From: Escherichia phage BYEP02
Reading direction: 5' to 3' (one strand)
Sequence record: OR757454.1
Length of the DNA stretch: 64,000 nt
Positions within the stretch are counted from its first letter, which is position 1. Every line of letters starts with the position of its first letter. This document shows positions 3,321-62,377 of this stretch, one piece after another. The position numbers were made by a program, and so were the translations under genes. The notes below the pieces were generated by a model that was not told the origin of the DNA, made no database searches, and was given only the letters and a program-made list of their open reading frames with translations.

Positions 3321-3321
3321 G

Positions 3322-7407: not shown

Positions 7408-8802
<1,395 letters not shown>

Positions 8803-13136: not shown

Positions 13137-13470
13137 AATTTTGGTTTTATGTATAGGATTAATTTCATTTTCTGCGTTAGCAAATACATCATACACTGAA
13201 ATTAGAGAGTATGTAAACCGTACTGCCGCGGATTATTGTGGGAAAAATAAAGCATGCCAAGCTGAATTTGCGCAGAAATTAATATATGCATATAAAGACG
13301 GAGAAAGAGATAAATCAAGTAGATACAAAAATGATACTTTATTAAAACGATATGCTAAAAAGTGGAATACCTTAGAATGTTCAGTTGCGGAGGAGAAAGA
13401 TAAAGCCGCTTGTCATTCAATGGTTGACCGTTTGGTAGATTCTTATAATCGAGGATTGAGTACTAGATGA
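13129..13470 (+). CDS. secreted/periplasmic protein (113 aa)
   Basis: Signal peptide MTKILVLCIGLISFSALA; four Cys. Confidence 0.5.
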   Translation: MTKILVLCIGLISFSALANTSYTEIREYVNRTAADYCGKNKACQAEFAQKLIYAYKDGERDKSSRYKNDTLLKRYAKKWNTLECSVAEEKDKAACHSMVDRLVDSYNRGLSTR

Positions 13471-13581
13471 TTGTAAAATATATCAAGGGCGATATTGTCG
13501 CCCTCCGTTTGGTAGATTCTTATAATCGAGGATTGAGTACTAGATGATTGTAAAATATATCAAGGGCGATATTGTCGCCCT
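13428..13581. repeat. 77-bp tandem duplication (13428-13504 / 13505-13581), identical; spans a gene junction, both genes intact
   Basis: Read directly. Confidence 0.9.
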
Positions 13582-15930: not shown

Positions 15931-16390
15931 AATTCAGCGACTTTTCACAAAGTGGAAAACCTTCAAAGGCAGATGAATACTTAGGTTTATTAATGGCTGC
16001 ACAAGCTTATTTTCATTCTGCTCACAAAGTGGAAAACCTTCAAAGGCAGATGAATACTTAGGTTTATTAATGGCTGCACAAGCTTATTTTCATTCTGCAC
16101 ATTTTGAAACTAAAAGTTATGCTAGACACAAAGCATACGATTTTATTTTCTCCGAGTTGCCAGATTTGATTGATAAATTTGGTGAGCAATATTTGGGGTA
16201 TTCTGGTAGAAAATACACACCTTCAATTCCAGATGCTAGTAAACTTCCTACCGACACAATTAAAATGATTGATCGCATACTAGACCAATCTAACAGCATT
16301 TATAAAGAAATGCCTCCAGCCATCCAAAGCACGATAGATGATATTACTGGAATGTTTTACCAGAGTAAGTATCTTCTTTCCCTCGAATAA
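15927..16390 (+). CDS. hypothetical protein, frameshifted by a 77-bp duplication
   Basis: ATGA overlap with rI stop; 129 codons after removing 77 nt. Confidence 0.5.
15946..16099. repeat. 77-bp tandem duplication (15946-16022 / 16023-16099), 0-1 mismatch
   Basis: Read directly. Confidence 0.9.
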
Positions 16391-17856: not shown

Positions 17857-18467
17857 ATGAAACGATTAGTATTAGAAGTTAGTTCATTTTTTGGTGAATT
17901 GGCTATAGAAAAAGTAAATAATATGTATCGTTTGACGCAAGAAGACGATATGCTATATTTTACGCCTAGCGAAATTATTCATTTAACCCAAATTGAAAAA
18001 CCTTACACTGATAAAATTGTAAGCATTAATGATGAGCATAAAATTCATTTCTATTCTTTATGCCCAGGATTTAACATTGAAAGCGAGTCAATATGCTTAT
18101 CAGTTATCCATTGGGATAGTTTTATAGCTAAGATTAAATATTTTTATTATTCTAATGAAAGAAAACATAGTTTAAAATGGCTCAAAAATTGCAATGCTAT
18201 TATTACTAACGCTTGCAATCAGAATGATGAAACTGTTTTAAACATAGTTTAAAATGGCTCAAAAATTGCAATGCTATTATTACTAACGCTTGCAATCAGA
18301 ATGATGAAACTGTTTTAAATGTATCAAAATGTTATGAAGATGGAGATGTCTTAACTATTCGTCAAATTGATGATTTTCGAGCGCATATTGTCACATTTAC
18401 CAAAGACGAAGCTATTGCGTTAAAGACTTATCTTGATTCTGTCATTCCAACTATGATTTCAAAGTGA
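17857..18467 (+). CDS. hypothetical protein, frameshifted by a 77-bp duplication
   Basis: 178 codons after removing 77 nt. Confidence 0.5.
18164..18317. repeat. 77-bp tandem duplication (18164-18240 / 18241-18317), identical
   Basis: Read directly. Confidence 0.9.
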
Positions 18468-19465: not shown

Positions 19466-20552
19466 TGAAAACAGTAATGAAAAGCTATTTTGGTAGTCAT
19501 CTTTATGGAACTTCTACTCCAGAATCTGATGTAGATTTTAAAGAAATCTTTGTTCCTCCTGCTCGTGATATTCTTATTGGAAATGTTAAAGAGCATATGA
19601 GCAAAAACACTAACAACACATCATCTAAAAACACTAAAGATGATATTGACCATGAACTATACAGTCTTAAGTATTTCTTTAAATTAGCAGCAGATGGTGA
19701 AACTGTAGCATTGGATATGCTCCACACTCCACCTGAACTAGTCTTAAATATTTCTTTAAATTAGCAGCAGATGGTGAAACCGTAGCATTGGATATGCTTC
19801 ACACTCCACCTGAACTAGTGGTTAAATCTGATTTGCCTGATGTGTGGAAGTTTATTCAAGACAACCGTTCTCGTTTTTATACGACTAACATGAAATCCTA
19901 TTTAGGATATGTCCGTAAGCAAGCTTCTAAATATGGCGTCAAGGGTTCTCGTTTGGCTGCATTACGTGATGTATTGAAAGTAGTTAATCAAATCCCTGAG
20001 CAATGGATTGATTACCAAGAAGATGGTTCTATTAAGCAGCGTCGTACTAAAGTTGAAGATATTAAGCATCGTCTTCCAGAAAACGAATTCTGTGAATGGG
20101 TGTTCCATAATCATGAGAAAACAGGCCCACAAACGTTCTACACTGTGTTGGGTCGTAAATATCAGACAACGCTTTCTCTTATTGAGCTTAAGCAGTCACT
20201 GAACAAATTAGATGCTGAATACGGTGAACGCGCTCGTAAGGCCGAAGCCAATGAAGGCATTGACTGGAAAGCTCTGAGCCATGCCTGCCGTGGTGGACTC
20301 CAACTATTGGAAATTTACAAAACTGGTGACTTGGTTTATCCACTCCAAGATGCTCCATTTATTCTCGACGTGAAGTTGGGTAAACACCCATTTAAAACAG
20401 TTCAAGAGTTTTTGGAAGATGTGGTCGATCAAGTAGAAGCAGCATCTACTGAAGCTTCTAAGAACGGTATGCAGCAAAAAGTAGACATGGGTTTCTGGGA
20501 TGACTTCCTTGAGAAGGTTTATCTTGAAAACCACCGAAGCTATTATAAATGA
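19462..20552 (+). CDS. nucleotidyltransferase-fold protein, frameshifted by a 77-bp duplication
   Basis: N-terminal FGSHLYGTSTPESDVDF fits the GS...D.D minimal nucleotidyltransferase signature; 338 codons after removing 77 nt. Confidence 0.55.
19664..19817. repeat. 77-bp tandem duplication (19664-19740 / 19741-19817), 3 mismatches
   Basis: Read directly. Confidence 0.9.
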
Positions 20553-21408: not shown

Positions 21409-22454
21409 ATGAAAACTGTAACTATCAATAAGGGTATCTACTTCGGTAAAGAAATCTCTGGAACTTTTGAGCTCTTAGGCGAATGGTTCCCAGATAATGC
21501 TCCGGTAGATGCACAAGGAGATGGTAAAGTTTTTGTTGAAATTGACGGTAAACGTCGCGGTGTTTGGGTTTACAAATCAGACATTTCATATGATGGTGTA
21601 AAAGTTGAAGAAGTTAAAGAATCGTATGAAGATATGAAAACCCGCATTAATAAAAGATTTAATGTTATGGGAATGATGACGAATGGTATTATTAATGGAA
21701 ACATTCGTTCATTAATTATCTCTGGTGCGGCGGGTATTGGTAAAACGTATTCTTTAGATAAAGCTTTGAATAAAGCAAATGATAATGGATACATTGAATA
21801 TAAAAGCATTAACGGTAAAATCTCTGGTATTGGTCTTTATGAGCAGCTTTGGAATAATCGTGAAGAGAATTCTGTCCTTTTGATTGATGATGTGGATGTT
21901 TTCTCTGATATGGACATTCTTAATCTTCTAAAAGCCGCTCTGGACACTGGAGAGACCCGTAAAGTCTGCTGGAGCACTGCATCTTCTTACTTAGAAGAAA
22001 AAGGCATTGAGCGTGAGTTTGAATTTAAAGGAACGATTGTTTTTATCACAAACGTTGACATTGACCGCGAATTAGACCGTGGTACTAAACTTGCTCCACA
22101 CTTACAAGCATTAGTGTCCCGCTCAGTTTATTTGGATTTGGGTGTTCATACTAATGAAGAAATTATGGTCAGGGTTGAAGATGTTATTCTTTCAACTGAC
22201 ATGATGCAAAAGCGCGGTCTTTCTACACTAATGAAGAAATTATGGTCAGGGTTGAAGATGTTATTCTTTCAACCGACATGATGCAAAAGCGCGGTCTTTC
22301 TGATGAAGAAACTTATAAAGCATTATCATGGATGAAAGTCAATGTTAACCGTTTACGCAATGTTTCACTGCGTACTGCACTTTATCTTGCTGACTTTATT
22401 ATGACCGACAAAAACGGCTGGCAAGAAATCGCTGAGGTTACTCTTCTGAAATAA
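21409..22454 (+). CDS. P-loop ATPase (AAA-like), frameshifted by a 77-bp duplication
   Basis: Walker A GAAGIGKTY, Walker B LLIDDVD; 323 codons after removing 77 nt. Confidence 0.6.
22148..22301. repeat. 77-bp tandem duplication (about 22148-22224 / 22225-22301), 1-3 mismatches
   Basis: Offset 77 between repeated ATG-containing segments. Confidence 0.85.
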
Positions 22455-23912: not shown

Positions 23913-24884
23913 ATGTCAGCAGTAATTAATAATGTCAATGCAGTAATTAAATCTTTAGTTAATAAAAAAATGATGAATGAATGGACTGTATTTCGTCGTG
24001 GAGAGCCAGATAAATTTTTTCATAGATTTAACCCAACTTTGGATTTGAATGTTATCGACAAAGATGTTCATGCTGAAATTTTAGATAAGTTTAAAGTTGA
24101 TATTGGATTTGGATTAGAAAAACATCTACAGCGAACAAATGGGTCTGGAATGAGTTTATCTAATCGCATTATGAAAGCCCTTAATAAAATTGGAGCATTG
24201 TCTCGTATTAAGCGAACAAACGGGTCTGGAATGGGTTTATCTAATCGCATTATGAAAGCCCTTAATAAAATTGGAGCATTGTCTCGTATTAATGCAAGTG
24301 AAATTCTTCGCAATTATAATAAAGGCTATGATCTTTACGGTCGACTAATGCCGAAATTATCATTTGACCAAATGATCGCAGATTTGTGGGAAAATCAACG
24401 ACGATTATTAGCATTAGGCGCTCGATTAGCTAAAGGTCTAGATAAACAAATGATTTTTAAGACCAATAATACAGAAGACCTTAAATGCTTTAAATTTAGT
24501 ATTCGCGGCGATGATTATTACGTCAGAGCTCGCTCTACAGATTATGTTAATATGGGGCATCATCTCTGTTTAGCTTTTGAAGTTTTAAAAGAAGCCGGAA
24601 CATTAGAATATGTGTCTGGTGCTAAATGCCCGATTGGTTCAAGTTGTATTTTAATTTATCGCCCGGATGAATCCAGTTTAACTAAATTGCCTACAAAACC
24701 TGTACCAGTTCGCAGTAATGAAAAACATTCTGAGCAAATTGATTATTTTAATAAGCAAATTGAAGAGCTGAATATTTCTATTCAACAGTATGACGATGAA
24801 ATTTTCAGACTATCTGGATTGAGTAGTAAAGCTAAATCTGAGCGTGAAAAATTAATTAAAATTGTTGATTTACTTAAATCTTAA
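23913..24884 (+). CDS. hypothetical protein A of a 4-gene tandem set; contains an in-frame 27-aa tandem repeat; C-terminal coiled coil
   Basis: ORF intact through 81-bp repeat; C-terminus heptad-like. Confidence 0.55.
   Translation: MSAVINNVNAVIKSLVNKKMMNEWTVFRRGEPDKFFHRFNPTLDLNVIDKDVHAEILDKFKVDIGFGLEKHLQRTNGSGMSLSNRIMKALNKIGALSRIKRTNGSGMGLSNRIMKALNKIGALSRINASEILRNYNKGYDLYGRLMPKLSFDQMIADLWENQRRLLALGARLAKGLDKQMIFKTNNTEDLKCFKFSIRGDDYYVRARSTDYVNMGHHLCLAFEVLKEAGTLEYVSGAKCPIGSSCILIYRPDESSLTKLPTKPVPVRSNEKHSEQIDYFNKQIEELNISIQQYDDEIFRLSGLSSKAKSEREKLIKIVDLLKS
24131..24292. repeat. 81-bp in-frame tandem repeat (24131-24211 / 24212-24292), 3 mismatches
   Basis: Encodes RTNGSGMSLSNRIMKALNKIGALSRIK / RTNGSGMGLSNRIMKALNKIGALSRIN. 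Confidence 0.9.
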
Positions 24885-25975: not shown

Positions 25976-26977
25976 ATGACTCGTAACGAATATATCAAAT
26001 CATTCAATAGCGTTATTGATGATAAAGCTATACCGATGTTTGGTCAAAATATCGTTCTTTCTATTATCAATCAATGGCTCAATAGTGTTGATGCAAGTAT
26101 TGTTTCTTCTACTAAATTTATTCATGAAATTCGTAAAATTTCTAGTCGTGTAGATAAAGATGTTATCAAGAAAACCTTTAAAGAGTCTCGTCTTCTTTCA
26201 TATTTGGTTAATCGGGATATTCTTGGTAATTTTGGGAAAGAAATTAAACGAACTAAAGATGTAGTAGGATATAATTGGTTCGGTGATGTTAATTCTTATC
26301 ATCTTAATAATAAAGAAGACCCTGAGAATATTTTTACTCGTCGTTGGATTAGTAATTTCAGACTTTTCAAAGGACAGATTCTAAAATCAGCTTCTAAATT
26401 ATGTTATGGCGATTATCGTCAAATTCATCCTTTGGCTTCTGATATGATTATCGTAAAAGAATATGAACTTGATAAAAATAAAGTATCTATTTTTGTGAAT
26501 TATGGATTTTTTACACCAGAAACTAACCAAAAGAATATTAATAAATTTTTCTCAATTGCTAGCACTATAACTCGTCAATTAGAGACCGCATTACTTTGTA
26601 TGGAAACAGTAGAAAATATTCATACTTATCCTTTTAAGAATATATGCGGTTGGGAAGGATATAAAATTGTAATTAGTCTTCGTGAAGTGAAATGTGCTTA
26701 TTCACCTACTGATAAAGAAATTTACCAACAAAAATGTGATGAAATTGTGAATACTCCTAAAGAAGAAACTACCCTTGAGGAACTAATGGAATGTCTTGAC
26801 GATTCACCTGAACCGGTAGAAATTCGTCCAGAAGTTATTGCACTAGAAAAAGCTTATAAAGAAGTTCTAGAAATTTCTAATAAAGCGCAGAAAGAATATG
26901 AGAAGGCTAAAAGGATTTGGGAAGAATCTGTTAATCGCCTTGATCGTTTGGAACAAGCTTTACAGTTAATTAAGTAA
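25976..26977 (+). CDS. hypothetical protein C of tandem set (333 aa); C-terminal coiled coil
   Basis: ATG with GAGGAG RBS. Confidence 0.55.
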   Translation: MTRNEYIKSFNSVIDDKAIPMFGQNIVLSIINQWLNSVDASIVSSTKFIHEIRKISSRVDKDVIKKTFKESRLLSYLVNRDILGNFGKEIKRTKDVVGYNWFGDVNSYHLNNKEDPENIFTRRWISNFRLFKGQILKSASKLCYGDYRQIHPLASDMIIVKEYELDKNKVSIFVNYGFFTPETNQKNINKFFSIASTITRQLETALLCMETVENIHTYPFKNICGWEGYKIVISLREVKCAYSPTDKEIYQQKCDEIVNTPKEETTLEELMECLDDSPEPVEIRPEVIALEKAYKEVLEISNKAQKEYEKAKRIWEESVNRLDRLEQALQLIK

Positions 26978-27083
26978 TTTAAAGCCAAGGATGGCTCGGA
27001 GTATAAGTTAATCGTCTTGATCGTCTGGAACAAGCTTTACAGTTAATTAAGTAATTTAAAGCCAAGGATGGCTCGGAGTATAA
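26930..27083. repeat. 77-bp tandem duplication (26930-27006 / 27007-27083), 2 mismatches; gene 3' end and intergenic
   Basis: Read directly. Confidence 0.9.
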
Positions 27084-29146: not shown

Positions 29147-29317
29147 ATGATTTACGATATTAGTGTATCAAGAACTCCGTCAATGGTTACTATTCCAGCC
29201 GAAGAACTAGATCGTCTTCAGAAAATTGAAGAACTTCTTTGGGAAATTGAATCTGATTTGCCATCAGGACTAGAATCCTGGATTGATTATGAAGAACTTA
29301 ATAAGCTTCGGGGTTAA
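29147..29317 (+). CDS. hypothetical acidic protein (56 aa)
   Basis: ATG 3 nt after upstream stop. Confidence 0.4.
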   Translation: MIYDISVSRTPSMVTIPAEELDRLQKIEELLWEIESDLPSGLESWIDYEELNKLRG

Positions 29318-29395
29318 AGGAAATTGAATCTGATTTGCCATCAGGACTAGAATCCTGGATTGATTATGAAGAACTTAATAAGCTTCGGGGTTAAA
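29242..29395. repeat. 77-bp tandem duplication (29242-29318 / 29319-29395), identical
   Basis: Read directly. Confidence 0.9.
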
Positions 29396-30121: not shown

Positions 30122-30672
30122 ATGTTATTGACTGGCAAATTATACAAAGAAGAAAAACAGAAATTTTATGATGCACAAAACGGTAAATGCTTAATTTGCC
30201 AACGAGAACTAAATCCTGATGTTCAAGCTAATCACCTTGACCATGACCATGAATTAAATGGACCGAAAGCTGGAAAGGTGCGTGGATTGCTCTGTAATCT
30301 TTGCAATGCTGCGGAAGGTCAAATGAAGCATAAATTTAATCGTTCTGGCTTAAAGGGACAAGGTGTTGATTATCTTGAATGGTTAGAAAATTTACTTACT
30401 TATTTAAAATCCGATTACACCCAAAATAATATTCACCCTAACTTTGTTGGAGATAAATCAAAGGAATTTTCTCGTTTAGGAAAAGAGGAAATGATGGCTG
30501 AGATGCTTCAAAGAGGATTTGAATATAATGAATCTGACACGAATTTTCTCGTTTAGGAAAAGAGGAAATGATGGCCGAGATGCTTCAAAGAGGATTTGAA
30601 TATAATGAATCTGACACAAAAACACAGTTAATAGCTTCATTCAAGAAGCAGCTTAGAAAGAGTTTAAAATGA
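30122..30672 (+). CDS. 49: endonuclease VII (Holliday-junction resolvase), frameshifted by a 77-bp duplication
   Basis: Translation MLLTGKLYKEEKQKFYDAQNGKCLICQREL... matches T4 gp49; 157 aa after removing 77 nt. Confidence 0.9.
30464..30617. repeat. 77-bp tandem duplication (30464-30540 / 30541-30617), 1 mismatch, inside gene 49
   Basis: Read directly. Confidence 0.9.
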
Positions 30673-32563
30673 CAATTGAAAAAGAAATTGAAGGATTGAT
30701 TCATAAAACTAATAAAGACCTTTTGAACGAGAATGCTAATAAAGATTCTCGTGTTTTTCCAACTCAACGGGACCTTATGGCTGGTATTGTGTCTAAACAC
30801 ATTGCCAAAAATATGGTCCCGTCTTTTATTATGAAAGCGCATGAAAGCGGAATTATTCATTTCCATGATATTGATTATTCCCCTGCTCTTCCATTTACTA
30901 ATTGCTGTTTAGTAGATTTAAAAGGAATGCTTGAGAACGGATTTAAGCTTGGTAATGCACAGATTGAAACTCCTAAATCAATTGGCGTTGCTACTGCAAT
31001 TATGGCACAAATTACTGCACAGGTTGCTTCCCATCAATATGGCGGAACGACTTTTGCGAATGTAGATAAAGTACTTTCTCCTTATGTTAAACGCACATAT
31101 GCAAAACATATTGAGGATGCAGAAAAATGGCAAATCGCTGATGCGTTGAATTATGCTCAATCTAAAACAGAAAAAGACGTATACGATGCATTCCAAGCTT
31201 ATGAATATGAAGTAAATACTCTCTTTAGTTCAAACGGGCAAACACCTTTTGTAACAATTACATTTGGTACGGGAACTGACTGGACTGAACGAATGATTCA
31301 GAAAGCAATTCTGAAAAATCGTATTAAAGGTCTTGGTCGTGATGGGATAACTCCTATTTTCCCTAAGCTTGTTATGTTTGTTGAAGAAGGTGTTAATCTT
31401 TACAAAGACGATCCGAACTATGATATTAAGCAGCTTGCTCTAGAGTGTGCAAGCAAAAGGATGTATCCTGATATTATTTCAGCTAAGAACAATAAAGCTA
31501 TCACTGGTTCATCTATTCCTGTTTCTCCAATGGGATGCCGTAGTTTCTTGAGCGTATGGAAAGATTCGACTGGCAATGAAATTCTTGATGGACGTAATAA
31601 TCTTGGTGTTGTAACACTGAATCTTCCTCGCATCGCGTTAGATTCTTATATTGGAACACAGTTCAATGAACAGAAATTTGTTGAATTATTCAATGAACGA
31701 ATGGATTTGTGTTTTGAAGCTTTGATGTGTAGAATTAGTTCCTTAAAAGGAGTTAAAGCTACTGTTGCTCCTATTCTTTACCAAGAAGGTGCATTCGGGG
31801 TTCGTCTTAAACCTGATGACGATATAATTGAGTTATTTAAAAACGGTAGAAGTTCAGTCAAGAAGGTGCATTCGGGGTTCGTCTTAAACCTGATGACGAC
31901 ATAATTGAGTTATTTAAAAACGGTAGAAGTTCAGTGTCCTTAGGATACATTGGTATTCACGAATTGAATATTCTTGTCGGTCGTGATATTGGACAAGAAA
32001 TTTTAACTAAGATGAATGCTCATCTTAAACAGTGGACCGAAAGAACCGGTTTTGCTTTTAGCTTGTATTCTACTCCTGCTGAAAACCTTTGCTATCGCTT
32101 CTGTAAACTTGATACTGAAAAATATGGAAGCGTAAAAGATGTTACTGATAAAGGTTGGTACACTAATAGTTTCCATGTTTCAGTAGAAGAAAATATCACT
32201 CCGTTTGAAAAGATTTCTCGTGAAGCACCATATCATTTCATTGCGACAGGTGGTCACATTTCTTATGTTGAACTTCCTGATATGAAAAATAACCTAAAAG
32301 GTCTTGAGGCTGTATGGGATTATGCTGCACAACATTTAGATTATTTTGGTGTTAACATGCCAGTAGATAAATGTTTTACGTGTGGAAGCACTCATGAAAT
32401 GACTCCTACTGAAAACGGATTTGTTTGTTCTATTTGTGGAGAAACTGATCCTAAAAAGATGAACACAATAAGAAGAACATGCGGCTATCTTGGAAACCCG
32501 AACGAACGCGGATTTAATCTCGGCAAAAATAAAGAAATCATGCATAGGGTTAAACACCAATGA
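30669..32563 (+). CDS. nrdD: anaerobic ribonucleotide reductase NrdD, frameshifted by a 77-bp duplication; no intron
   Basis: 605 aa after removing 77 nt; both halves read as T4 NrdD. Confidence 0.9.
31782..31935. repeat. 77-bp tandem duplication (31782-31858 / 31859-31935), 1 mismatch, inside nrdD
   Basis: Read directly. Confidence 0.9.
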
Positions 32564-33144: not shown

Positions 33145-33434
33145 ATGTATAAATTTCGTAAAGGTTTAGCTGATTTTCTTACAACTGTAACGTTCTTTTT
33201 GTTTATGGCAGTTGGAGCTATTTTCCTTATTCCTTTTATTGCTATATTTTTCGTGATTAGCTTAATTTCTCCAGAAAAAGGCTTATCTTCTAGGCTATTT
33301 TCCTTATTCCTTTTATTGCTATATTTTTCGTGATTAGTTTGATTTCTCCAGAAAAGGGCTTATCTTCTAGTGAGTTCAATGAGCGTCTGGATAAAATTAC
33401 TAACAAGCTGAATGCTGCTCTTAGTAAGGAATAG
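33145..33434 (+). CDS. small membrane protein, frameshifted by a 77-bp duplication
   Basis: 71 codons after removing 77 nt. Confidence 0.45.
33218..33371. repeat. 77-bp tandem duplication (33218-33294 / 33295-33371), 3 mismatches
   Basis: Read directly. Confidence 0.9.
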
Positions 33435-36732: not shown

Positions 36733-36904
36733 AATTAATGCAGGATTTACTGAATCTTTGAATGGTCATCTTTGTGTGAAAATTTCTGAAAAAGAATACC
36801 ATGATAGTTCAATTAAAGAAGTTAATCCTCCTATTGTAAGAGCAGACCCTAATATGAAAGTGTGGGTTGATTCTTATCAAGTCAAAAAATGGTGGCAACT
36901 GTGA
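36701..36904 (+). CDS. hypothetical protein (67 aa)
   Basis: ATG overlapping upstream 3' end. Confidence 0.45.
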   Translation: MLTHVKFKRLKINAGFTESLNGHLCVKISEKEYHDSSIKEVNPPIVRADPNMKVWVDSYQVKKWWQL

Positions 36905-37049
36905 AAGATGAACACCCAGACTTCTGAAATAGATTATAATAAAATTCGTTCCTCTAAAGTAGAAATGATGAGCAACTGTGAAAGATGAACGCCCAGACTT
37001 GTGAAATAGATTATAATAAAATTCGTTCCTCTAAAGAGGAAATGATGAG
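36896..37049. repeat. 77-bp tandem duplication (36896-36972 / 36973-37049), 4 mismatches
   Basis: Read directly. Confidence 0.9.
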
Positions 37050-40070: not shown

Positions 40071-41826
40071 AGAATTTTAAACTTAACCGAGTTAGGTATC
40101 AAAATATAATGTCAGTAGGTGGAAATCCTATTGACATTCAACTAGATAAGGTTCAAAAAACTCTTATTACTGGACGAAATGGCGGTGGTAAGTCTACTAT
40201 GCTAGAATTGACATTCAATTAGATAAGGTTCAAAAAACTCTTATTACTGGACGAAATGGCGGTGGTAAGTCTACTATGTTAGAAGCCATCACATTCGGGC
40301 TTTTTGGCAAGCCATTCCGTGATGTAAAGAAAGGCCAATTAATAAACAGTACAAATAAGAAAGAACTTTTAGTTGAACTGTGGATGGAATATGACGAGAA
40401 AAAGTACTATATCAAAAGAGGACAAAAACCAAACGTTTTCGAAATCACCGTTAACGGTACACGTCTTAATGAATCTGCCAGCAGTAAAGATTTCCAAGCA
40501 GAATTTGAACAGCTTATCGGAATGTCATATGCCAGTTTCAAGCAGATTGTTGTCCTTGGTACAGCAGGGTATACCCCTTTCATGGGTTTGTCGACCCCTG
40601 CGCGAAGAAAGCTTGTGGAAGACCTGCTCGAGGTAGGAACATTAGCTGAAATGGATAAGCTTAATAAAGCACTAATACGTGAATTAAATTCACAAAACCA
40701 AGTGCTTGATGTTAAAAAAGATAGTATTATCCAGCAAATTAAAATATATAATGATAACGTTGAACGCCAGAAAAAATTAACTGGTGATAACCTTACTCGT
40801 CTACAGAATATGTATGATGATTTAGCAAAAGAAGCTAGAACGCTAAAATCGGAAATAGAAGAAGCTAATGAAAGATTAGTTAATATTGTTTTGGATGAAG
40901 ACCCGACTGATGCATTTAATAAAATCGGTCAAGAAGCATTTTTAATTAAATCAAAAATTGACTCGTATAATAAAGTCATTAATATGTATCACGAAGGTGG
41001 ATTATGTCCAACCTGTTTGTCACAATTAAGTTCTGGTGATAAAGTTGTTTCTAAAATTAAAGATAAAGTTTCTGAATGTACGCATTCATTTGAACAGCTT
41101 TCAACACATCGTGATAATTTAAAAGTTCTTGTTGACGAATACCGAGATAATATTAAAACCCAGCAGACGTTGGCAAATGATATTCGCAATAAAAAGCAAT
41201 CTCTAATCACGACTGTAGATAAAGCTAAAAAAGTTAAAGCAGCTATAGAAAAAGCATCATCTGAGTTTATTGACCATGCTGATGAAATAGCACTGCTTCA
41301 AGAAGAACTTGATAAAATTGTTAAGACAAAAACTAATTTAGTAATGGAAAAATACCACAGAGGAATTTTGACTGATATGCTCAAAGATTCTGGTATTAAA
41401 GGTGCTATTATTAAAAAGTACATTCCATTATTTAATAAGCAGATTAACCATTATCTTAAAATAATGGAAGCGGATTATGTGTTTACATTAGATGAAGAAT
41501 TTAATGAGACAATTAAATCCCGTGGTCGTGAAGATTTTAGTTATGCTTCATTTAGTGAAGGTGAAAAAGCACGAATTGATATTGCTCTTTTATTTACTTG
41601 GCGTGATATTGCTTCTATTGTATCTGGTGTTAGTATTAGTACATTAATTCTTGATGAAGTGTTTGATGGGTCATTTGATGCCGAAGGTATTAAAGGTGTA
41701 GCTAATATTATAAATTCAATGAAAAATACTAATGTTTTTATAATTTCGCATAAAGACCATGACCCGCAAGAATATGGTCAGCATCTTCAAATGAAGAAAG
41801 TTGGTCGATTTACTGCAATGGTTTAA
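40067..41826 (+). CDS. 46: recombination ATPase gp46 (Rad50/SbcC-like), frameshifted by a 77-bp duplication
   Basis: Walker A GRNGGGKST (duplicated by the repeat); 560 aa after removing 77 nt; GTG start. Confidence 0.9.
40131..40284. repeat. 77-bp tandem duplication (40131-40207 / 40208-40284), 2 mismatches, inside gene 46
   Basis: Read directly. Confidence 0.9.
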
Positions 41827-42079: not shown

Positions 42080-42546
42080 ATGACTAAAATTACTGTGAAT
42101 TATACTGTTGATGTAAAAGATATTCAGCCAAAACACGTGCGTTCTGATTCAAATCCACAAAACCAAAATAAAATTCGTCGAGCATGGGTTTTGTCTCTTT
42201 CTGATAACGCAATGGAAGTTATTCAGAACAAAATTAAATCTGCACCTGCTCGTCATGCGTATTATGAAGCTATCGATCGTGAAGTAAGTAATAAATGGAT
42301 TGAACTAATGCGCAAACATACTACAGAATCCCTAAACGCCGGTGCTAAATTTATTATGACTTCATGTGGTGAACGCCTTGAAGATGACGCAAACATACTA
42401 CAGAATCCCTAAACGCCGGTGCTAAATTTATTATGACTTCATGTGGTGAACGTCTTGAAGATGATTATTGCGGTAATGCAGATGAACGTCTAATTGTTGC
42501 TGCTCAAATTGTTGCGGAAACAATTGCGGCTGATTTTAATCGTTAA
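42080..42546 (+). CDS. rpbA: RNA polymerase binding protein RpbA, frameshifted by a 77-bp duplication
   Basis: 129 aa after removing 77 nt; sits between 46 and 45 as in T4. Confidence 0.7.
42313..42466. repeat. 77-bp tandem duplication (42313-42389 / 42390-42466), 1-2 mismatches
   Basis: Read directly. Confidence 0.9.
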
Positions 42547-42699
42547 TTGCTTTATTAAATTAGTTATAAAATTAAATCTCATTTGAATTGAAGGAAATTA
42601 CATGAAACTGTCTAAAGATACAATTGCTTTATTAAATTAGTTATAAAATTAAATCTCATTTGAATTGAAGGAAATTACATGAAACTGTCTAAAGATACA
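42546..42699. repeat. 77-bp tandem duplication (42546-42622 / 42623-42699), identical; duplicates the gene 45 promoter, RBS and first 7 codons
   Basis: Read directly. Confidence 0.9.
42624..42649 (+). promoter_or_regulatory. possible MotA-dependent middle promoter (TTGCTTTA box plus TATAAA)
   Basis: ttgctttattaaattagttataaaat ~30 nt upstream of gene 45 ATG. Confidence 0.4.
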
Positions 42700-43416: not shown

Positions 43417-44453
43417 ATGATTACTGTAAATGAAAAAGAACACATTCTTGAACAGAAATATCGTCCATCTACTATCGATGAATGTATTCTTCCCGCCTTT
43501 GATAAAGAAACCTTTAAATCTATTACAAGTAAAGGTAAGATTCCACATATTATTCTTCATTCTCCTTCTCCAGGAACAGGTAAAACAACCGTAGCAAAAG
43601 CATTGTGTCATGACGTAAATGCTGATATGATGTTTGTGAATGGGTCAGATTGTAAAATTGATTTCGTTCGTGGTCCTTTGACTAATTTTGCTAGTGCAGC
43701 TTCATTTGATGGTCGTCAAAAAGTAATTGTTATTGATGAATTTGACCGTTCAGGGTTAGCAGAGTCTCAAGTGCAGCTTCATTTGATGGTCGTCAAAAAG
43801 TAATCGTTATTGATGAATTTGACCGTTCAGGGCTAGCAGAGTCTCAGCGACATCTTCGTTCATTTATGGAAGCTTATAGTTCAAACTGTAGTATTATTAT
43901 TACTGCTAACAATATTGATGGTATTATTAAACCGCTTCAGTCACGCTGCCGAGTTATTACATTCGGTCAACCGACCGATGAAGATAAAATTGAAATGATG
44001 AAGCAGATGATTCGTCGATTGACTGAAATCTGCAAGCGTGAAGGAATTGCTATAGCTGATATGAAAGTTGTAGCAGCTTTGGTTAAAAAGAATTTTCCTG
44101 ATTTTCGTAAAACTATTGGCGAGCTTGATAGTTATTCATCTAAAGGTGTTTTGGATGCTGGTATTTTATCACTGGTTACTAACGATCGTGGTGCTATTGA
44201 TGATGTTCTTGAATCTCTCAAAAATAAAGATGTTAAACAGCTCAGAGCTTTAGCACCAAAATATGCAGCTGATTATTCGTGGTTCGTAGGTAAACTTGCC
44301 GAAGAAATTTATTCACGTGTAACTCCGCAAAGTATTATTCGTATGTATGAAATTGTTGGTGAAAATAACCAGTATCATGGTATTGCAGCTAATACTGAGT
44401 TACATTTAGCATATCTTTTCATTCAATTGGCATGCGAAATGCAGTGGAAGTGA
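43417..44453 (+). CDS. 44: clamp-loader large subunit gp44, frameshifted by a 77-bp duplication
   Basis: Walker [11 protein letters not shown]; 319 aa after removing 77 nt. Confidence 0.9.
43694..43847. repeat. 77-bp tandem duplication (43694-43770 / 43771-43847), 3 mismatches, inside gene 44
   Basis: Read directly. Confidence 0.9.
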
Positions 44454-45466: not shown

Positions 45467-48240
45467 ATGAAAGAATTTTATATCTCTATTGAAACAGTCG
45501 GAAATAATATTGTTGAACGTTATATTGATGAAAATGGAAAGGAACGTACTCGTGAAGTAGAATATCTTCCGACTATGTTTAGGCATTGTAAGGAAGAGTC
45601 AAAATACAAAGACATTTATGGTAAAAATTGCGCTCCTCAAAAATTTCCATCAATGAAAGATGCACGAGACTGGATGAAGCGAATGGAAGACATCGGTCTC
45701 GAAGCTCTTGGTATGAACGATTTTAAACTCGCTTATATCAGTGATACATATGGTTCAGAAATTGTTTATGACCGAAAATTTGTTCGTGTAGCTAACTGTG
45801 ACATTGAGGTTACTGGCGATAAATTTCCTGACCCAATGAAAGCAGAATATGAAATTGATGCTATCACTCATTATGATTCAATTGATGATCGTTTTTACGT
45901 CTTTGATTTGTTGAATTCAATGTACGGTTCAGTATCAAAATGGGATGCAAAGTTAGCTGCTAAGCTTGACTGTGAAGGTGGCGATGAAGTTCCTCAAGAA
46001 ATTCTTCAGTATCAAAATGGGATGCAAAGTTAGCTGCTAAGCTTGACTGTGAAGGTGGTGATGAAGTTCCTCAAGAAATTCTTGACCGAGTAATTTATAT
46101 GCCATTCGATAATGAGCGTGATATGCTCATGGAATATATCAATCTTTGGGAACAGAAACGACCTGCTATTTTTACTGGTTGGAATATTGAGGGATTTGAC
46201 GTTCCGTATATCATGAATCGCGTTAAAATGGTTCTCGGTGAACGTAGTATGAAACGCTTCTCTCCAATCGGTCGGGTAAAATCTAAACTAATTCAAAATA
46301 TGTACGGTAGCAAAGAAATTTATTCTATTGATGGCGTATCTATTCTTGATTATTTAGATTTGTACAAGAAATTTGCTTTTACTAATTTGCCGTCATTCTC
46401 TTTGGAATCAGTTGCTCAACATGAAACCAAAAAAGGTAAATTACCATACGACGGTCCTATTAATAAACTCCGTGAGACTAATCATCAACGATACATTAGT
46501 TATAACATCATTGACGTAGAATCAGTTCAAGCAATTGATAAAATTCGCGGGTTTATCGATCTAGTTTTAAGTATGTCTTATTATGCTAAAATGCCTTTTT
46601 CTGGTGTAATGAGTCCTATTAAAACTTGGGATGCTATTATTTTTAACTCATTGAAAGGTGAACACAAGGTTATTCCTCAGCAAGGTTCGCATGTTAAACA
46701 GAGTTTTCCGGGTGCATTTGTATTTGAACCTAAACCAATTGCTCGTCGATATATTATGAGTTTTGACTTGACGTCTCTGTATCCGAGCATTATTCGTCAG
46801 GTTAACATTAGTCCTGAGACTATTCGTGGTCAGTTTAAAGTTCATCCAATTCATGAATATATCGCAGGAACAGCTCCTAAACCGAGTGATGAATATTCTT
46901 GTTCTCCGAATGGATGGATGTACGATAAGCATCAAGAAGGTATCATTCCAAAGGAAATCGCTAAAGTATTTTTCCAGCGTAAAGATTGGAAAAAGAAAAT
47001 GTTCGCTGAAGAAATGAATGCCGAAGCTATTAAAAAGATTATTATGAAAGGCGCAGGGTCTTGTTCAACTAAACCTGAAGTTGAACGATATGTTAAGTTC
47101 AGTGATGATTTCTTAAATGAACTATCGAATTATACTGAATCTGTTCTCAATAGTTTGATTGAAGAATGTGAAAAAGCGGCTACACTTGCTAACACAAATC
47201 AGCTGAACCGTAAAATTCTTATTAACAGCCTTTACGGTGCTCTTGGTAATATTCATTTCCGTTACTATGATTTGCGAAATGCTACTGCTATCACAATTTT
47301 CGGTCAAGTCGGTATTCAGTGGATTGCTCGTAAAATTAATGAATATCTAAATAAAGTATGTGGAACTGATGGTGAAGATTTCATTGCCGCGGGTGATACT
47401 GATTCGGTATATGTTTGTGTAGATAAAGTAATTGAAAAAGTAGGTCTTGACCGCTTTAAAGAACAAAATGATTTAGTTGAATTCATGAATCAGTTTGGTA
47501 AGAAAAAGATGGAACCTATGATTGATGTTGCATATCGTGAGTTATGTGATTATATGAATAATCGCGAGCATCTGATGCATATGGACCGTGAAGCTATTTC
47601 TTGCCCTCCACTTGGTTCAAAGGGCGTTGGTGGATTTTGGAAAGCGAAAAAGCGTTATGCTCTGAACGTTTATGATATGGAAGATAAACGATTTGCTGAA
47701 CCGCATCTAAAAATCATGGGTATGGAAACTCAACAGAGTTCAACACCAAAAGCAGTGCAAGAAGCTCTCGAAGAAAGTATTCGTCGTATTCTTCAGGAAG
47801 GTGAAGAGTCTGTCCAAGAATACTACAAGAACTTCGAGAAAGAATATCGTCAACTTGACTATAAAGTTATTGCTGAAGTAAAAACTGCGAACGATATAGC
47901 AAAATATGATGATAAAGGTTGGCCAGGATTTAAATGTCCGTTCCATATTCGCGGTGTGCTAACTTATCGTCGAGCTGTTAGTGGTCTGGGTGTAGCTCCA
48001 ATTTTGGATGGAAATAAAGTAATGGTTCTTCCATTGCGTGAAGGAAATCCATTTGGTGACAAGTGCATTGCTTGGCCGTCGGGCACAGAACTTCCAAAAG
48101 AAATTCGTTCTGATGTACTATCTTGGATTGACTACTCAACTTTGTTCCAAAAATCGTTTGTTAAACCGCTTGCGGGCATGTGTGAATCGGCTGGTATGGA
48201 CTATGAAGAAAAAGCTTCGTTAGACTTCCTGTTTGGCTGA
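45467..48240 (+). CDS. 43: DNA polymerase gp43 (family B), frameshifted by a 77-bp duplication
   Basis: 898 aa after removing 77 nt; exo and polymerase motifs present (e.g. YGDTDS-like GDTDS). Confidence 0.95.
45930..46083. repeat. 77-bp tandem duplication (45930-46006 / 46007-46083), 1 mismatch, inside gene 43
   Basis: Read directly. Confidence 0.9.
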
Positions 48241-49461: not shown

Positions 49462-50279
49462 ATGATTAACGATTATATGACAGTTGAAGAAATCCGTCTT
49501 GATTTGGGTCTTGCATTAAAGGAAAAAGATTTCGTAATTGATAAAACCGGGGTTAAAACTATTGAAATTATTGGTGCATCATTTGTAGCAGATGAACCTT
49601 TTATTTTTGGCGCTCTTAATGATGAATACATTCAGCGTGAACTTGAATGGTATAAATCTAAGAGCTTGTTCGTTAAAGATATTCCAGGTGAAACACCGAA
49701 GATTTGGCAGCAGGTAGCATCTTCTAAAGGCGAAATTAACTCGAATTATGGTTGGGCTATCTGGTCAGAAGATAACTATGCTCAGTATGATATGTGTTTA
49801 GCTGAACTTGGTCAAAATCCTGATTCTCGACGTGGTATCATGATTTATACTCGTCCATCCATGCAATTTGACTACAATAAAGATGGTATGTCAGATTTCA
49901 TGTGCACGAATACAGTACAGTACCTGATTCGTGATAAGAAAGTCAATGCAGTGGTTAACATGAGAAGCAATGATTGCTGGGCAGGCTATCGTAATGATTA
50001 TGCATGGCAAAAATACGTATTAGATAAATTAGTATCTGATTTGAATGCAGGCGACCCATCGCGGCAATATAAAGCAGGTTCTATTATATGGAACGTTGGA
50101 AGTCTTTAGTATCTGATTTGAATGCAGGCGATTCAACTCGTCAGTATAAAGCAGGTTCTATTATATGGAATGTTGGAAGTCTTCATGTATATTCTCGTCA
50201 TTTTTACTTGGTTGATCATTGGTGGAATACTGGCGAAACTCATATTGTGAAAAAAGATTATAACGGTGAGTGGAAATGA
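49462..50279 (+). CDS. 42: dCMP hydroxymethylase gp42, frameshifted by a 77-bp duplication
   Basis: 246 aa after removing 77 nt; thymidylate-synthase-like fold sequence. Confidence 0.9.
50031..50184. repeat. 77-bp tandem duplication (50031-50107 / 50108-50184), about 7 clustered differences (GDPSRQY vs GDSTRQY)
   Basis: Read directly. Confidence 0.9.
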
Positions 50280-52723: not shown

Positions 52724-54228
52724 GTGGTAGAAATTATTCTTTCTCATCTCATATTTGATCAAGCTTATTTTTCAAAAGTTTGGCCATATATGGATTCAGA
52801 ATATTTTGAAAGTGGTCCAGCTAAAAATACATTCAAATTAATTAAATCTCATGTTAATGAGTACCATAGCGTTCCATCCATTAATGCGTTAAATGTTGCA
52901 TTAGAAAATAGTTCATTTACTGAAACAGAATATTCTGGTGTAAAAACACTTATTTCAAAACTAACCGATTCTCCGGAAGACCACAGCTGGTTAGTAAAAG
53001 AAACAGAAAAATATGTTCAGCAAAGGGCGATGTTTAATGCTACGTCTAAAATAATTGAAATTCAAACCAATGCTGAGCTTCCTCCAGAAAAACGAAATAA
53101 GAAAATGCCAGATGTAGGTGCTATTCCTGACATCATGCGCCAAGCATTGTCAATTTCATTTGATAGCTACGTCGGTCATGATTGGATGGATGACTACGAA
53201 GCACGTTGGCTATCTTATATGAATAAAGCTCGTAAGGTTCCATTTAAACTCAAAATTCTAAATAAAATTACTAAAGGCGGAGCTGAAACTGGAACACTGA
53301 ACGTTTTAATGGCTGGTGTTAACGTTGGTAAGTCATTAGGATTGTGTTCATTGGCAGCAGATTATTTGCAGCTCGGACACAATGTTCTTTACATTTCCAT
53401 GGAAATGGCAGAAGAAGTCTGTGCTAAGCGTATTGACGCTAATATGCTCGATGTTTCTCTTGATGACATTGATGATGGGCATATTTCTTACGCTGAATAT
53501 AAAGGAAAAATGGAAAAATGGCGTGAGAAATCTACTCTTGGACGTTTAATCGTTAAACAGTATCCTACTGGTGGAGCAGACGCTAATACATTTCGATCGC
53601 TTTTAAACGAATTAAAGCTCAAGAAGAATTTTGTTCCAACAATCATTATTGTTGACTATCTAGGTATTTGTAAATCTTGTCGCATCAGAGTTTATTCAGA
53701 AAATAGTTACACAACTGTTAAAGCTATCGCAGAGGAATTGCGTGCTCTGGCTGTTGAAACCGAAACTGTTCTTTGGACCGCAGCACAAGTTGGTAAGCAA
53801 GCTTGGGATTCTTCTGATGTTAACATGAGCGATATTGCAGAATCTGCCGGTCTTCCGCAGCACAGGTTGGTAAACAAGCTTGGGATTCTTCTGATGTTAA
53901 CATGAGCGATATTGCAGAATCTGCCGGTCTTCCAGCAACAGCCGATTTTATGCTTGCGGTCATTGAAACCGAGGAGTTAGCAGCTGCTGAACAACAACTC
54001 ATTAAGCAAATCAAATCACGATATGGTGATAAGAATAAATGGAATAAGTTTTTGATGGGTGTTCAAAAAGGAAATCAAAAATGGGTAGAAATTGAGCAAG
54101 ATTCTACTCCAACTGAAGTTAACGAAGTAGCAGGTTCACAGCAGATTCAGGCTGAGCAGAATCGCTATCAAAGAAACGAATCTACTCGAGCCCAGTTAGA
54201 TGCTTTGGCAAATGAATTAAAATTTTAG
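52724..54228 (+). CDS. 41: replicative helicase gp41 (DnaB-like), frameshifted by a 77-bp duplication
   Basis: Walker A GVNVGKS; 475 aa after removing 77 nt; GTG start. Confidence 0.9.
53780..53933. repeat. 77-bp tandem duplication (53780-53856 / 53857-53933), 2 mismatches, inside gene 41
   Basis: Read directly. Confidence 0.9.
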
Positions 54229-54257
54229 TTTACAAGCTGACAGGACTATGGTATAGT
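54228..54257 (+). promoter_or_regulatory. T4 early-type promoter (GTTTAC, 18 nt, TATAGT)
   Basis: Consensus motifs upstream of dmd. Confidence 0.5.
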
Positions 54258-54286
54258 AGTCTTGTTGGTTAAATGAGGAGATTGTT

Positions 54287-54546
54287 ATGGAATTGGTAAA
54301 GGTAGTTTTTATGGGGTGGTTTAAGAATGAAAGCATGTTTACTAAAGAAATCACAATGATGAAAGAGAATTGGTAAAGGTAGTTTTTATGGGGTGGTTTA
54401 AGAATGAAAGCATGTTTACTAAAGAAATCACAATGATGAAAGATGACGTTCAATGGGCTACTACTCAGTATGCTGAAGTTAATAAAGCATTAGTTAAAGC
54501 TTTCATTGATGACAAGAAAGTATGTGAAGTGGATTGCCGAGGATAA
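54287..54546 (+). CDS. dmd: Dmd (antitoxin against host RnlA/LsoA-type RNases), frameshifted by a 77-bp duplication
   Basis: 60 aa after removing 77 nt: MELVKVVFMGWFKNESMFTKEITMMKDDVQW... Confidence 0.85.
54290..54443. repeat. 77-bp tandem duplication (54290-54366 / 54367-54443), identical, inside dmd
   Basis: Read directly. Confidence 0.9.
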
Positions 54547-54547: not shown

Positions 54548-54805
54548 ATGCATATTGTTTTATTTAAACCTACTCCGTATAACGTCAGGAAAAATACACA
54601 ATTCAAAGCACTTATTGCAGATACGTGGGAATTGGTATTAGATATTCCAGCAGAAGAAAGTCCTCCATTTGGTCGAGTGGAATTTATTAAGTTTGCTGTT
54701 CGCCCTACGAAGCGGCAGATTCGCCAATGCAAAAGATACTTTCGTAAAATCGTCAAGCTAGAGAAACAGTTTGTAACATGTGATTATGCAAAAGTTTTAA
54801 AATAG
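54548..54805 (+). CDS. hypothetical basic protein (85 aa)
   Basis: ATG right after dmd stop. Confidence 0.5.
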   Translation: MHIVLFKPTPYNVRKNTQFKALIADTWELVLDIPAEESPPFGRVEFIKFAVRPTKRQIRQCKRYFRKIVKLEKQFVTCDYAKVLK

Positions 54806-56147: not shown

Positions 56148-56307
56148 AACATATAAAGAATTTATTAAAGAAGATATGGTTGCTGGAGATTCAGGTGGTA
56201 ATCCTGAAAATATCTCTACTGGAACAACGTCAGGTGCTGTAGTAAATAAAGGTCCTGAACAGATTCCTAAAAAGAAAAAAGAGGAATCTAAAGAAAAAGA
56301 AGAGTAA
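56143..56307 (+). CDS. small protein (54 aa) with capsid-targeting-like N-terminus MKTYKEFIKE
   Basis: ATG 2 nt after upstream stop; Lys/Glu-rich tail; not in supplied ORF track. Confidence 0.4.
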   Translation: MKTYKEFIKEDMVAGDSGGNPENISTGTTSGAVVNKGPEQIPKKKKEESKEKEE

Positions 56308-56428
56308 AAATGTCATCAATACCTTGGATTGATAATGAGTTTGCATACCGTAAAAAAGAGGAATCTAAAGAAAAAGAAGAGTAAAAATGTCATCAATACC
56401 TTGGATTGATAATGAGTTTGCATACCGT
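56275..56428. repeat. 77-bp tandem duplication (56275-56351 / 56352-56428), identical; duplicates the gene 61 RBS and start
   Basis: Read directly. Confidence 0.9.
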
Positions 56429-57711: not shown

Positions 57712-59134
<1,423 letters not shown>

Positions 59135-61837: not shown

Positions 61838-62377
61838 AGTAGCAAAATTATATTCAATAGAATTTATGTCTAAAGAAGGTAAATCAGTAAATACACTTGA
61901 TAAAAAGTGCTCATTAATTATTCCTATTATTCAATAGAATTTATGTCCAAAGAAGGTAAATCAGTAAATACACTTGATAAAAATTGCTCGTTAATTATTC
62001 CTTTAGCAGAAAATCCGGATATTTTAATTAAAGATATAAAAGAAAGAAAATATCCAGAAAATGTTATTCTAATTATAAAGCATACTGAAGATATTTTGCA
62101 GAATACTGATTCACCATTTTCTTCTTCTGAAGCTTTAACTATTAAAGGCTATAAAAGAGCTCATGAATATGGTCTTTTTGACCTGTTTGAAGACGATAAA
62201 GTTAAATTAGCGAGTCAACCTTTTAAAAGTAAAACATTCATTATTGAAGATATTAAAGATATAAATGCATTTGTTAGGATGGTCTGGGCTCATTTTGATG
62301 TTGGACTACGCTGGAGAATGTCCGAAGAAGAAAGAAAGATTGCTGAAGCTAATCGTCATTTTGGTTTTTATCGCTAG
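61830..62377 (+). CDS. hypothetical protein, frameshifted by a 77-bp duplication
   Basis: 156 aa after removing 77 nt. Confidence 0.5.
61849..62002. repeat. 77-bp tandem duplication (about 61849-61925 / 61926-62002), 3-4 mismatches
   Basis: Read directly. Confidence 0.85.

What the first reader, a model, noticed from the sequence alone, without database searches (positions are those of the whole stretch)
54287..54546. Antitoxin gene dmd present but split by a 77-bp duplication
Removing the duplicate restores a 60-aa product that reads as T4 Dmd. Dmd neutralises host RnlA/LsoA toxin RNases, so its integrity decides host range on strains carrying those systems. As written the gene is truncated at codon 28.
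Basis: partly seen in the sequence, partly recalled or inferred. Interest (0 to 1): 0.45.

Follow-up and report, generated by a model that had tools for sequence, protein, structure and literature searches.

The report
Assembly-join artefact, dmd actually intact
The 77-base duplication that seems to break the phage anti-toxin gene dmd is one of 33 fixed-length duplications left where separately assembled pieces of T4-like phage DNA were pasted together without trimming their overlaps, so the gene is almost certainly intact and the finding is ordinary.

Summary
An exact 77-nt tandem duplication (54290-54366 / 54367-54443) interrupts an ORF that, once one copy is removed, encodes a protein 60/60 identical to T4 Dmd (PDB 5HY3_B; Pfam PF17587).

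It is not a biological event. The window carries 31 two-copy duplications of exactly 77 nt and two of 81 nt. No tandem duplication of any other period between 20 and 300 nt is present. Every one is single-copy in T4 and in hundreds of related phages.

As written, the duplications frameshift essential genes 41, 42, 43, 44, 46 and 49, which no viable phage could tolerate. Removing one copy per site restores each as a full-length ORF.

Differences between the paired copies are natural alleles: 37 synonymous against 9 non-synonymous, and 45 transitions against 13 transversions. Similarity to phage slur03 jumps exactly at the junctions, from 96.9% to 99.95% to 100%.

The window is therefore a mosaic of pieces from at least two T4-like haplotypes, concatenated with untrimmed fixed-length overlaps. 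77 is a standard SPAdes k-mer size.

The dmd gene is intact in the underlying phage, and no host-range inference follows. Interest is very low, except as a data-quality flag for the whole record.

The parts
54229..54257 (+). Early-promoter-like site upstream of dmd (TTTACA, 17-nt spacer, TG-extended TATAGT)
   Evidence: 10 of 12 consensus matches; the position matches the 41-dmd intergenic region of T4
54275..54280 (+). Shine-Dalgarno GAGGAG, 6 nt upstream of the dmd ATG
   Evidence: read directly from the sequence
54287..54376 (+). dmd as written: 29-codon ORF (Dmd residues 1-26 plus ENW, then stop)
   Evidence: Pfam PF17587 positions 1-28
54290..54366 (+). Copy 1 of the 77-nt overlap; 3' end of piece 53855-54366 (haplotype 96.9% identical to slur03, closest to G4498)
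54367..54443 (+). Copy 2 of the 77-nt overlap; 5' end of piece 54367-56351 (99.95% identical to slur03)
54367..54546 (+). dmd codons 2-60 plus stop TAA (54544-54546). With 54287-54289 this is the true, intact 183-nt gene
   Evidence: tblastn residues 2-60, 100%; 5HY3_B 60/60
54548..54805 (+). Gene 61.4 homologue immediately downstream (its ATG follows the dmd TAA after 1 nt)
52724..54228 (+). Gene 41 (replicative helicase), split as written into 393-aa and 108-aa ORFs
53778..53931 (+). 77-nt x2 join duplication inside gene 41 (75/77 identical; both differences synonymous)
629..782 (+). 77-nt x2 join duplication (trna.2 / tRNA-Gln intergenic region)
1598..1751 (+). 77-nt x2 join duplication (tRNA-Pro/Gly; two tRNA-Pro alleles with paired changes on both arms of the stems)
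1807..1962 (+). 77/78-nt x2 join duplication (tRNA-Ser/Thr)
3163..3324 (+). 81-nt x2 join duplication (3' flank of rnaC)
4104..4257 (+). 77-nt x2 join duplication (e.8)
6701..6854 (+). 77-nt x2 join duplication (e.3)
7595..7748 (+). 77-nt x2 join duplication (nudE, split into two frames)
8459..8612 (+). 77-nt x2 join duplication (downstream of lysozyme gene e; this region is not shared with T4)
10012..10165 (+). 77-nt x2 join duplication (vs.8)
11245..11398 (+). 77-nt x2 join duplication (vs.5)
13428..13581 (+). 77-nt x2 join duplication (vs / tk.4 boundary)
15945..16098 (+). 77-nt x2 join duplication (rI.-1)
18163..18316 (+). 77-nt x2 join duplication (mobD.1)
19663..19816 (+). 77-nt x2 join duplication (nrdC.11)
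22150..22303 (+). 77-nt x2 join duplication (nrdC.10)
24130..24291 (+). 81-nt x2 join duplication (nrdC.6)
26930..27083 (+). 77-nt x2 join duplication (3' end of nrdC.4 and the spacer downstream)
29242..29395 (+). 77-nt x2 join duplication (49.2/49.1 region)
30464..30617 (+). 77-nt x2 join duplication (gene 49, endonuclease VII, split)
31782..31935 (+). 77-nt x2 join duplication (nrdD)
33217..33370 (+). 77-nt x2 join duplication (55.8)
36887..37049 (+). 77-nt x2 join duplication with a small indel (a-gt.3 / a-gt.2)
40130..40283 (+). 77-nt x2 join duplication (gene 46, split)
42311..42464 (+). 77-nt x2 join duplication (rpbA, split)
42545..42698 (+). 77-nt x2 join duplication (upstream region and start codon of gene 45)
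43693..43846 (+). 77-nt x2 join duplication (gene 44, clamp loader, split)
45928..46081 (+). 77-nt x2 join duplication (gene 43, DNA polymerase, split)
50029..50182 (+). 77-nt x2 join duplication (gene 42, dCMP hydroxymethylase, split)
56275..56428 (+). 77-nt x2 join duplication (61.1 / 61 boundary, includes the gene 61 start)
58981..59134 (+). 77-nt x2 join duplication (3' end of dam)
61851..62004 (+). 77-nt x2 join duplication (modA.3)

Best explanation
The 77-nt duplication in dmd is an in-silico join artefact. The window is a chain of about 34 separately derived sequence pieces (209-4780 nt). They come from at least two closely related T4-like (Tequatrovirus) haplotypes and were written one after another without removing the fixed-length overlap that neighbouring pieces share. 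That overlap is 77 nt at 31 joins and 81 nt at two. One join happens to fall inside dmd. Copy 1 is the last 77 nt of a G4498-like piece, and copy 2 is the first 77 nt of a slur03-like piece. In the real DNA the region occurs once, and dmd is an intact 183-nt gene with its own early promoter and Shine-Dalgarno sequence, encoding a protein identical to T4 Dmd. Shown: the number, fixed length and sharp edges of the duplications; their absence from real genomes; the broken essential genes; the allelic nature of the differences between copies; and the haplotype switches at the joins. Inferred: that the pieces are edges or contigs of a k=77 de Bruijn assembly (SPAdes-style) of a mixed phage population, later polished piece by piece. 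This sub-claim has a confidence of about 0.6.
For: (1) Among all periods from 20 to 300 nt, only 77 and 81 give near-identical tandem duplications. The scan found 30 arrays at 77 and 2 at 81. TRF adds a 31st 77-nt array that carries a 1-nt indel. All have sharp edges.
(2) Where T4 is homologous on both sides of a join (29 of 31), the de-duplicated join aligns to T4 as one collinear match, and the as-written version splits into two matches overlapping by about 77 nt of T4. The 81-nt ones behave the same way. They are also absent from about 500-700 phage records. No phage record matches the dmd/gene 41 region in one piece.
(3) As written, genes 41, 42, 43, 44, 46, 49, rpbA, nudE and dmd are each split over two frames, because 77 is not a multiple of 3. 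Removing one copy per site restores single full-length ORFs 93-100% identical to the T4 proteins. Genes 41-46 and 49 are classical conditional-lethal T4 genes (established knowledge).
(4) The 58 differences between paired copies comprise 45 transitions and 13 transversions. Of the 49 in coding sequence, 35 are at codon position 3. Of the 46 whose codons could be read, 37 are synonymous and 9 are not. The tRNA-Pro copies differ by paired changes on both arms of the stems. These are selected natural alleles, not errors or decay after a duplication.
(5) Identity to slur03 changes stepwise at the joins: 98.3%, 96.9%, 99.95%, 100%, 99.6%, 97.5%. Adjacent pieces overlap by exactly 77 nt in slur03 coordinates.
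(6) SPAdes graph edges and contigs are connected by k-mer overlaps (10.1101/2023.07.09.548288). That 77 is a default SPAdes k is from my own knowledge.
Against: A pure de Bruijn overlap must be exact, yet 19 of 33 overlaps differ at 1-8 positions or by a 1-nt indel. Two overlaps are 81 nt rather than 77. Some extra step, such as per-contig polishing in a mixed sample or a second joining rule, must therefore be assumed. The source record and its reads could not be found, so the pipeline is not documented. The dmd overlap itself is 100% identical, so on its own it carries no allelic evidence. Its artefactual nature rests on being indistinguishable from the other 32 and on the haplotype switch across it.
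Confidence: 0.95

Rival explanations
1. A genuine in-vivo 77-bp tandem duplication inactivated dmd in this phage, which would then be sensitive to RnlA/LsoA hosts.
For: The duplication is exact and frameshifting. Tandem duplications do arise in T4 (own knowledge). dmd is dispensable on hosts that lack rnlA/lsoA (PMC5308261 abstract).
Against: It has the same length and form as 30 other duplications in the same 64 kb. Several of those would destroy essential genes 41, 42, 43, 44, 46 and 49. The piece upstream of the dmd join and the piece downstream belong to different haplotypes (96.9% against 99.95% identity to slur03). No public Tequatrovirus record carries it, and the junction 31-mer is absent from three large collections.
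Confidence: 0.01
2. The record was stitched on purpose or by a non-assembler script from pieces of several genomes that share fixed 77/81-nt ends. Examples are a concatenated file of overlapping synthesis or tiling fragments, or a reference-guided merge. In that case it is not the path of a k=77 assembly graph.
For: The overlaps are not all exact, and two have a different length. That fits a design or merge rule better than strict de Bruijn vertices. The pieces match different known phages.
Against: The pieces have irregular lengths (209-4780 nt), unlike designed tiles. 77 is a typical assembler k. For the dmd finding the consequence is the same: the duplication is not in the DNA.
Confidence: 0.04

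Closest known systems
T4 Dmd (discriminator of mRNA degradation), phage-encoded antitoxin of the RnlA and LsoA toxins; PDB 5HY3 chain B, Pfam PF17587
   Same: After one 77-nt copy is removed, the product is 60/60 identical to T4 Dmd. The gene lies in the same place (41 - dmd - 61.4 - sp - 61.2) behind an early-promoter-like site.
   Different: Nothing differs biologically. The only difference is the duplicated 77 nt in the written record.
Untrimmed k-mer overlaps between de Bruijn graph edges or contigs (SPAdes-type assemblies; the same cause as the k-length terminal repeat on circular SPAdes contigs)
   Same: The overlaps have a fixed length equal to a common assembler k (77), occur at every join, have sharp edges, and the pieces switch between co-assembled strains. 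k-overlap links are described in 10.1101/2023.07.09.548288.
   Different: 19 of 33 overlaps are not identical and two are 81 nt, which a raw graph would not give.
Genuine tandem duplications in T4 (for example the rII-region duplications known from classical genetics; own knowledge)
   Same: Head-to-tail repetition of a stretch of phage DNA.
   Different: Real duplications are single events of arbitrary and usually much greater length. They are not 31 events of exactly 77 nt, and they do not break essential genes in a viable phage.

Membership tests
Dmd (PF17587) antitoxin of RnlA/LsoA | Sequence match to the family profile above the curated cut-off over its full length | tested here: met
   De-duplicated product: 156.9 bits (cut-off 27), profile positions 1-60 of 60. 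As written, the 29-aa ORF matches only profile positions 1-28.
Dmd (PF17587) antitoxin of RnlA/LsoA | Identity to the experimentally characterised T4 protein whose complex with LsoA is solved | tested here: met
   60/60 identical to 5HY3 chain B 'Antitoxin Dmd' and to T4 NP_049653.
Dmd (PF17587) antitoxin of RnlA/LsoA | Conserved genomic position between gene 41 and 61.4/sp, expressed early | tested here: met
   Gene order matches T4, vB_Eco_Geo and slur03. Promoter-like site at 54229-54257; expression itself was not tested.
Dmd (PF17587) antitoxin of RnlA/LsoA | Neutralises RnlA/LsoA RNase activity during infection | not testable with these tools
   Inferred from 100% identity to T4 Dmd. Function is described in PMC5308261 and PMC8266594 (abstracts).
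k-mer-overlap concatenation artefact | Many duplications of one fixed length, and none of other lengths | tested here: met
   31 at 77 nt and 2 at 81 nt; none at any other period from 20 to 300 nt.
k-mer-overlap concatenation artefact | Duplications absent from independent genomes of the same and related phages | tested here: met
k-mer-overlap concatenation artefact | Biologically impossible consequences if taken at face value | tested here: met
   Essential genes 41, 42, 43, 44, 46 and 49 are frameshifted, and all are restored by de-duplication.
k-mer-overlap concatenation artefact | The two copies are exactly identical (strict de Bruijn vertex) | tested here: not met
   Only 14 of 33 are identical; the rest differ at 1-8 positions or by a 1-nt indel. 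The artefact is therefore not a raw graph dump; polishing or another joining rule must be assumed.
k-mer-overlap concatenation artefact | No sequencing reads span the copy-copy junction | not testable with these tools
   Reads and the source record are not available. The junction 31-mer is absent from IMG/VR, GTDB genomes and JGI metagenome contigs.

The most novel reading that the evidence does not exclude
One member of the mixed T4-like population really carries a 77-bp tandem duplication in dmd. It would be a natural dmd-null phage maintained on hosts without RnlA/LsoA, and its duplication length would match the assembler overlap only by coincidence.
Probability: 0.01. Interest if true: 0.25.

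Novelty: not a real feature. Interest (0 to 1): 0.03.

Why it matters
It matters only as quality control. Taken at face value, the record would yield about 20 false pseudogenes or split genes, including DNA polymerase, helicase, clamp loader and dmd. It would also yield spurious tRNA fragments and a false claim that a T4-like phage lacks its anti-RnlA/LsoA antitoxin. The whole window is a chimera of at least two haplotypes, so it should not be used for gene-content, host-range or recombination inferences until it is de-duplicated and re-phased. The same 77-nt signature can be used to screen other records from the same source.

Tried and rejected
(1) I looked for the source record through the artefact-specific junction 31-mer in IMG/VR, GTDB genomes and JGI metagenome contigs and found no matches. 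Megablast of 53700-54600 against complete E. coli genomes and PLSDB plasmids also found nothing.

(2) I looked up the frameshifted gp41 fragments by exact protein sequence. The 393-aa fragment is not on record. The 108-aa fragment is encoded on one SPAdes contig (ERZ12298779 NODE_137356). That contig is a different haplotype (97% identical), has an internal TAA, has no duplication, and is collinear with slur03. I rejected it as the source.

(3) I considered that the two 81-nt repeats might be natural: 81 is a multiple of 3, and one lies next to rnaC/rnaD, which I recalled as related to each other. I rejected this because both are single-copy in T4 and in all the best-matching phage records.

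(4) I considered that the differences between copies were sequencing errors. I rejected this because of the strong excess of third-position, synonymous and transition changes, and the paired changes on both arms of the tRNA-Pro stems.

(5) I considered a residual-function scenario for the as-written sequence: a TTG at 54370 overlaps the stop and opens a 58-aa ORF equal to Dmd residues 3-60. This is moot, because the duplication is not real.

Full report
**1. The observation**

The stretch 54290-54366 is repeated exactly at 54367-54443 (77 nt, 100% identical). As written, the ATG at 54287 opens a 29-codon ORF, MELVKVVFMGWFKNESMFTKEITMMK followed by ENW and a stop at 54374-54376. A second ORF in another frame carries the rest. 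Removing one copy yields a 60-aa protein. This protein is 60/60 identical to T4 Dmd and to chain B of PDB 5HY3, 'Antitoxin Dmd'. It matches Pfam PF17587 over positions 1-60 of 60 at 156.9 bits. The description is therefore accurate, apart from the exact codon of truncation.

**2. It is not a local event**

Tandem Repeats Finder over the whole window lists 31 two-copy arrays with period 77 and two with period 81. My own scan of every period from 20 to 300 nt, requiring at least 88% identity, found tandem duplications only at 77 (30 arrays; a 31st has a 1-nt indel) and at 81 (2 arrays). All have sharp boundaries. One lies 359 nt upstream of the dmd duplication, inside gene 41 (53778-53931).

**3. 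The window is a T4-like genome segment, and real genomes have one copy at each site**

The region matches more than 600 Tequatrovirus records; the best is vB_Eco_Geo at 98.6%, and every match is in three or more pieces. The window corresponds to T4 coordinates of roughly 73 kb down to 12 kb, from the tRNA cluster to modA, with its + strand being the T4 - strand.

Where T4 is homologous on both sides of a join (29 of 31), the de-duplicated version aligns to T4 as a single collinear match. The as-written version splits into two matches whose T4 coordinates overlap by about 77 nt. The two 81-nt cases behave the same way, and they are absent from all the best-matching phage records.

**4. Taken literally, the record describes a dead phage**

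Because 77 is not a multiple of 3, each duplication inside a coding region shifts the frame. tblastn with T4 proteins shows that nine genes are each split between two frames as written:
- 41 (helicase)
- 42 (dCMP hydroxymethylase)
- 43 (DNA polymerase)
- 44 (clamp loader)
- 46
- 49
- rpbA
- nudE
- dmd

After one copy per site is removed, every one is a single full-length ORF 93-100% identical to T4. The numbered genes are classical conditional-lethal genes of T4 (established knowledge). Two duplications also cut through the tRNA cluster.

**5. The two copies come from different haplotypes**

Fourteen pairs are identical and nineteen are not (1-8 substitutions or a 1-nt indel). The 58 substitutions tabulated in 20 of the pairs break down as follows:
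- 45 are transitions and 13 are transversions.
- Of the 49 that fall in coding sequence, 35 are at codon position 3.
- Of the 46 whose codons could be read, 37 are synonymous and 9 are not.

At the 1598 join, the copies are two tRNA-Pro alleles that differ by paired changes on both arms of the anticodon and T stems. This pattern is polymorphism filtered by selection in intact genes. It is not sequencing error, and it is not drift after a frameshifting duplication.

The pieces between joins also differ sharply in their similarity to phage slur03 (NC_042129), as one search shows:

| Piece | Identity to slur03 |
|---|---|
| 50106-53854 | 98.3% |
| 53855-54366 | 96.9% |
| 54367-56351 | 99.95% |
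| 56352-59057 | 100% |
| 59058-61927 | 99.6% |
| 61928-64000 | 97.5% |

Adjacent pieces overlap by exactly 77 nt in slur03 coordinates. The 512-nt piece ending with copy 1 of the dmd duplication is closest to vB_EcoM_G4498 (99.4%). The piece starting with copy 2 is essentially identical to slur03, slur08, slur14 and BGP. In slur03, dmd is annotated and intact.

**6. Explanation**

The window is a concatenation of separately derived pieces from a mixture of at least two T4-like phages. They were written end to end without trimming the fixed overlap that neighbouring pieces share.

A fixed overlap equal to k is what links edges and contigs of a de Bruijn assembler such as SPAdes (10.1101/2023.07.09.548288). 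That 77 is one of SPAdes' default k values is from my own knowledge. This pipeline attribution is inferred, not shown.

Two things do not fit a raw graph dump: the non-identical overlaps and the two 81-nt overlaps. They require an added assumption, such as per-contig polishing in a mixed sample or a second joining rule. For the finding in hand the conclusion does not depend on this. The duplication is in the file, not in the DNA.

**7. What the locus really is**

It is an ordinary, intact dmd gene. Upstream are an early-promoter-like site (54229-54257) and a GAGGAG Shine-Dalgarno sequence (54275-54280). The coding sequence is 54287-54289 plus 54367-54546. It is followed by 61.4 (54548-54805), sp and 61.2, as in T4.

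Dmd is the T4 antitoxin that blocks the host RNase toxins RnlA and LsoA after infection (PMC5308261, PMC8266594, abstracts). Given 100% identity, the same function is expected here. This is an inference and was not tested.

**8. Comparison, novelty and score**

The gene is a known member of a known family, identical to the type protein. The 'split' is not a real feature. A real dmd-null variant that happens to have the same 77-nt length cannot be strictly excluded without reads, but I put it at about 1%. Interest is 0.03. The only value is as a warning that the whole record is chimeric and carries 33 spurious duplications.

**9. Dead ends**

The source record could not be located. A SPAdes contig found through the 108-aa gp41 fragment proved unrelated.

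Noticed in passing
whole window; junctions listed in parts; measured for 43770-64000: The window is a haplotype mosaic. Identity to phage slur03 steps between 96.9% and 100% exactly at the join points, so at least two co-assembled T4-like phages contributed pieces. Any recombination or mosaicism analysis on this record would be misleading.
   Followed up: partly
window 3163-3324 and 24130-24291: Two join duplications are 81 nt rather than 77. Both are absent from T4 and from all the best-matching phage records. The reason for the different length is unexplained.
   Followed up: partly
window 1434-2532: The tRNA cluster holds 10 predicted tRNAs (Leu, Gly, Pro, Ser, Thr, Met/Ile-CAT, Tyr, Asn, His, Arg). 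Tyr, Asn and His are not in T4's set of eight, and no tRNA-Gln was called. Two of the join duplications cut through this cluster and leave chimeric tRNA fragments.
   Followed up: no
window 1598-1751: The two copies at this join are distinct tRNA-Pro alleles that differ by paired changes on both arms of the anticodon stem and the T stem. This is a natural example of covariation between co-occurring phage strains.
   Followed up: partly
window 54370-54546: As written, a TTG at 54370 overlaps the premature TAA (54374-54376) and opens a 58-aa ORF equal to Dmd residues 3-60. Even a real duplication of this kind might therefore not be a clean null, because translation could restart there.
   Followed up: no
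L005 (ENA ERZ12298779 NODE_137356_length_539_cov_2.77), positions 1-539: An unrelated low-coverage metagenome contig of another T4-like haplotype has an in-frame TAA within gene 41. It therefore yields the same 108-aa C-terminal gp41 product as the window, and it carries no duplication.
   Followed up: yes
window 8536-10088, 18240-19739, 27007-29318: Several pieces align only partly or weakly to T4 (about half to a third of their length, or 81% identity). These regions correspond to the ipII/ipIII-denV, mobD and nrdC.1-49.x parts of T4, and they differ in content from the reference. That is expected hypervariable T4-like content.
   Followed up: no
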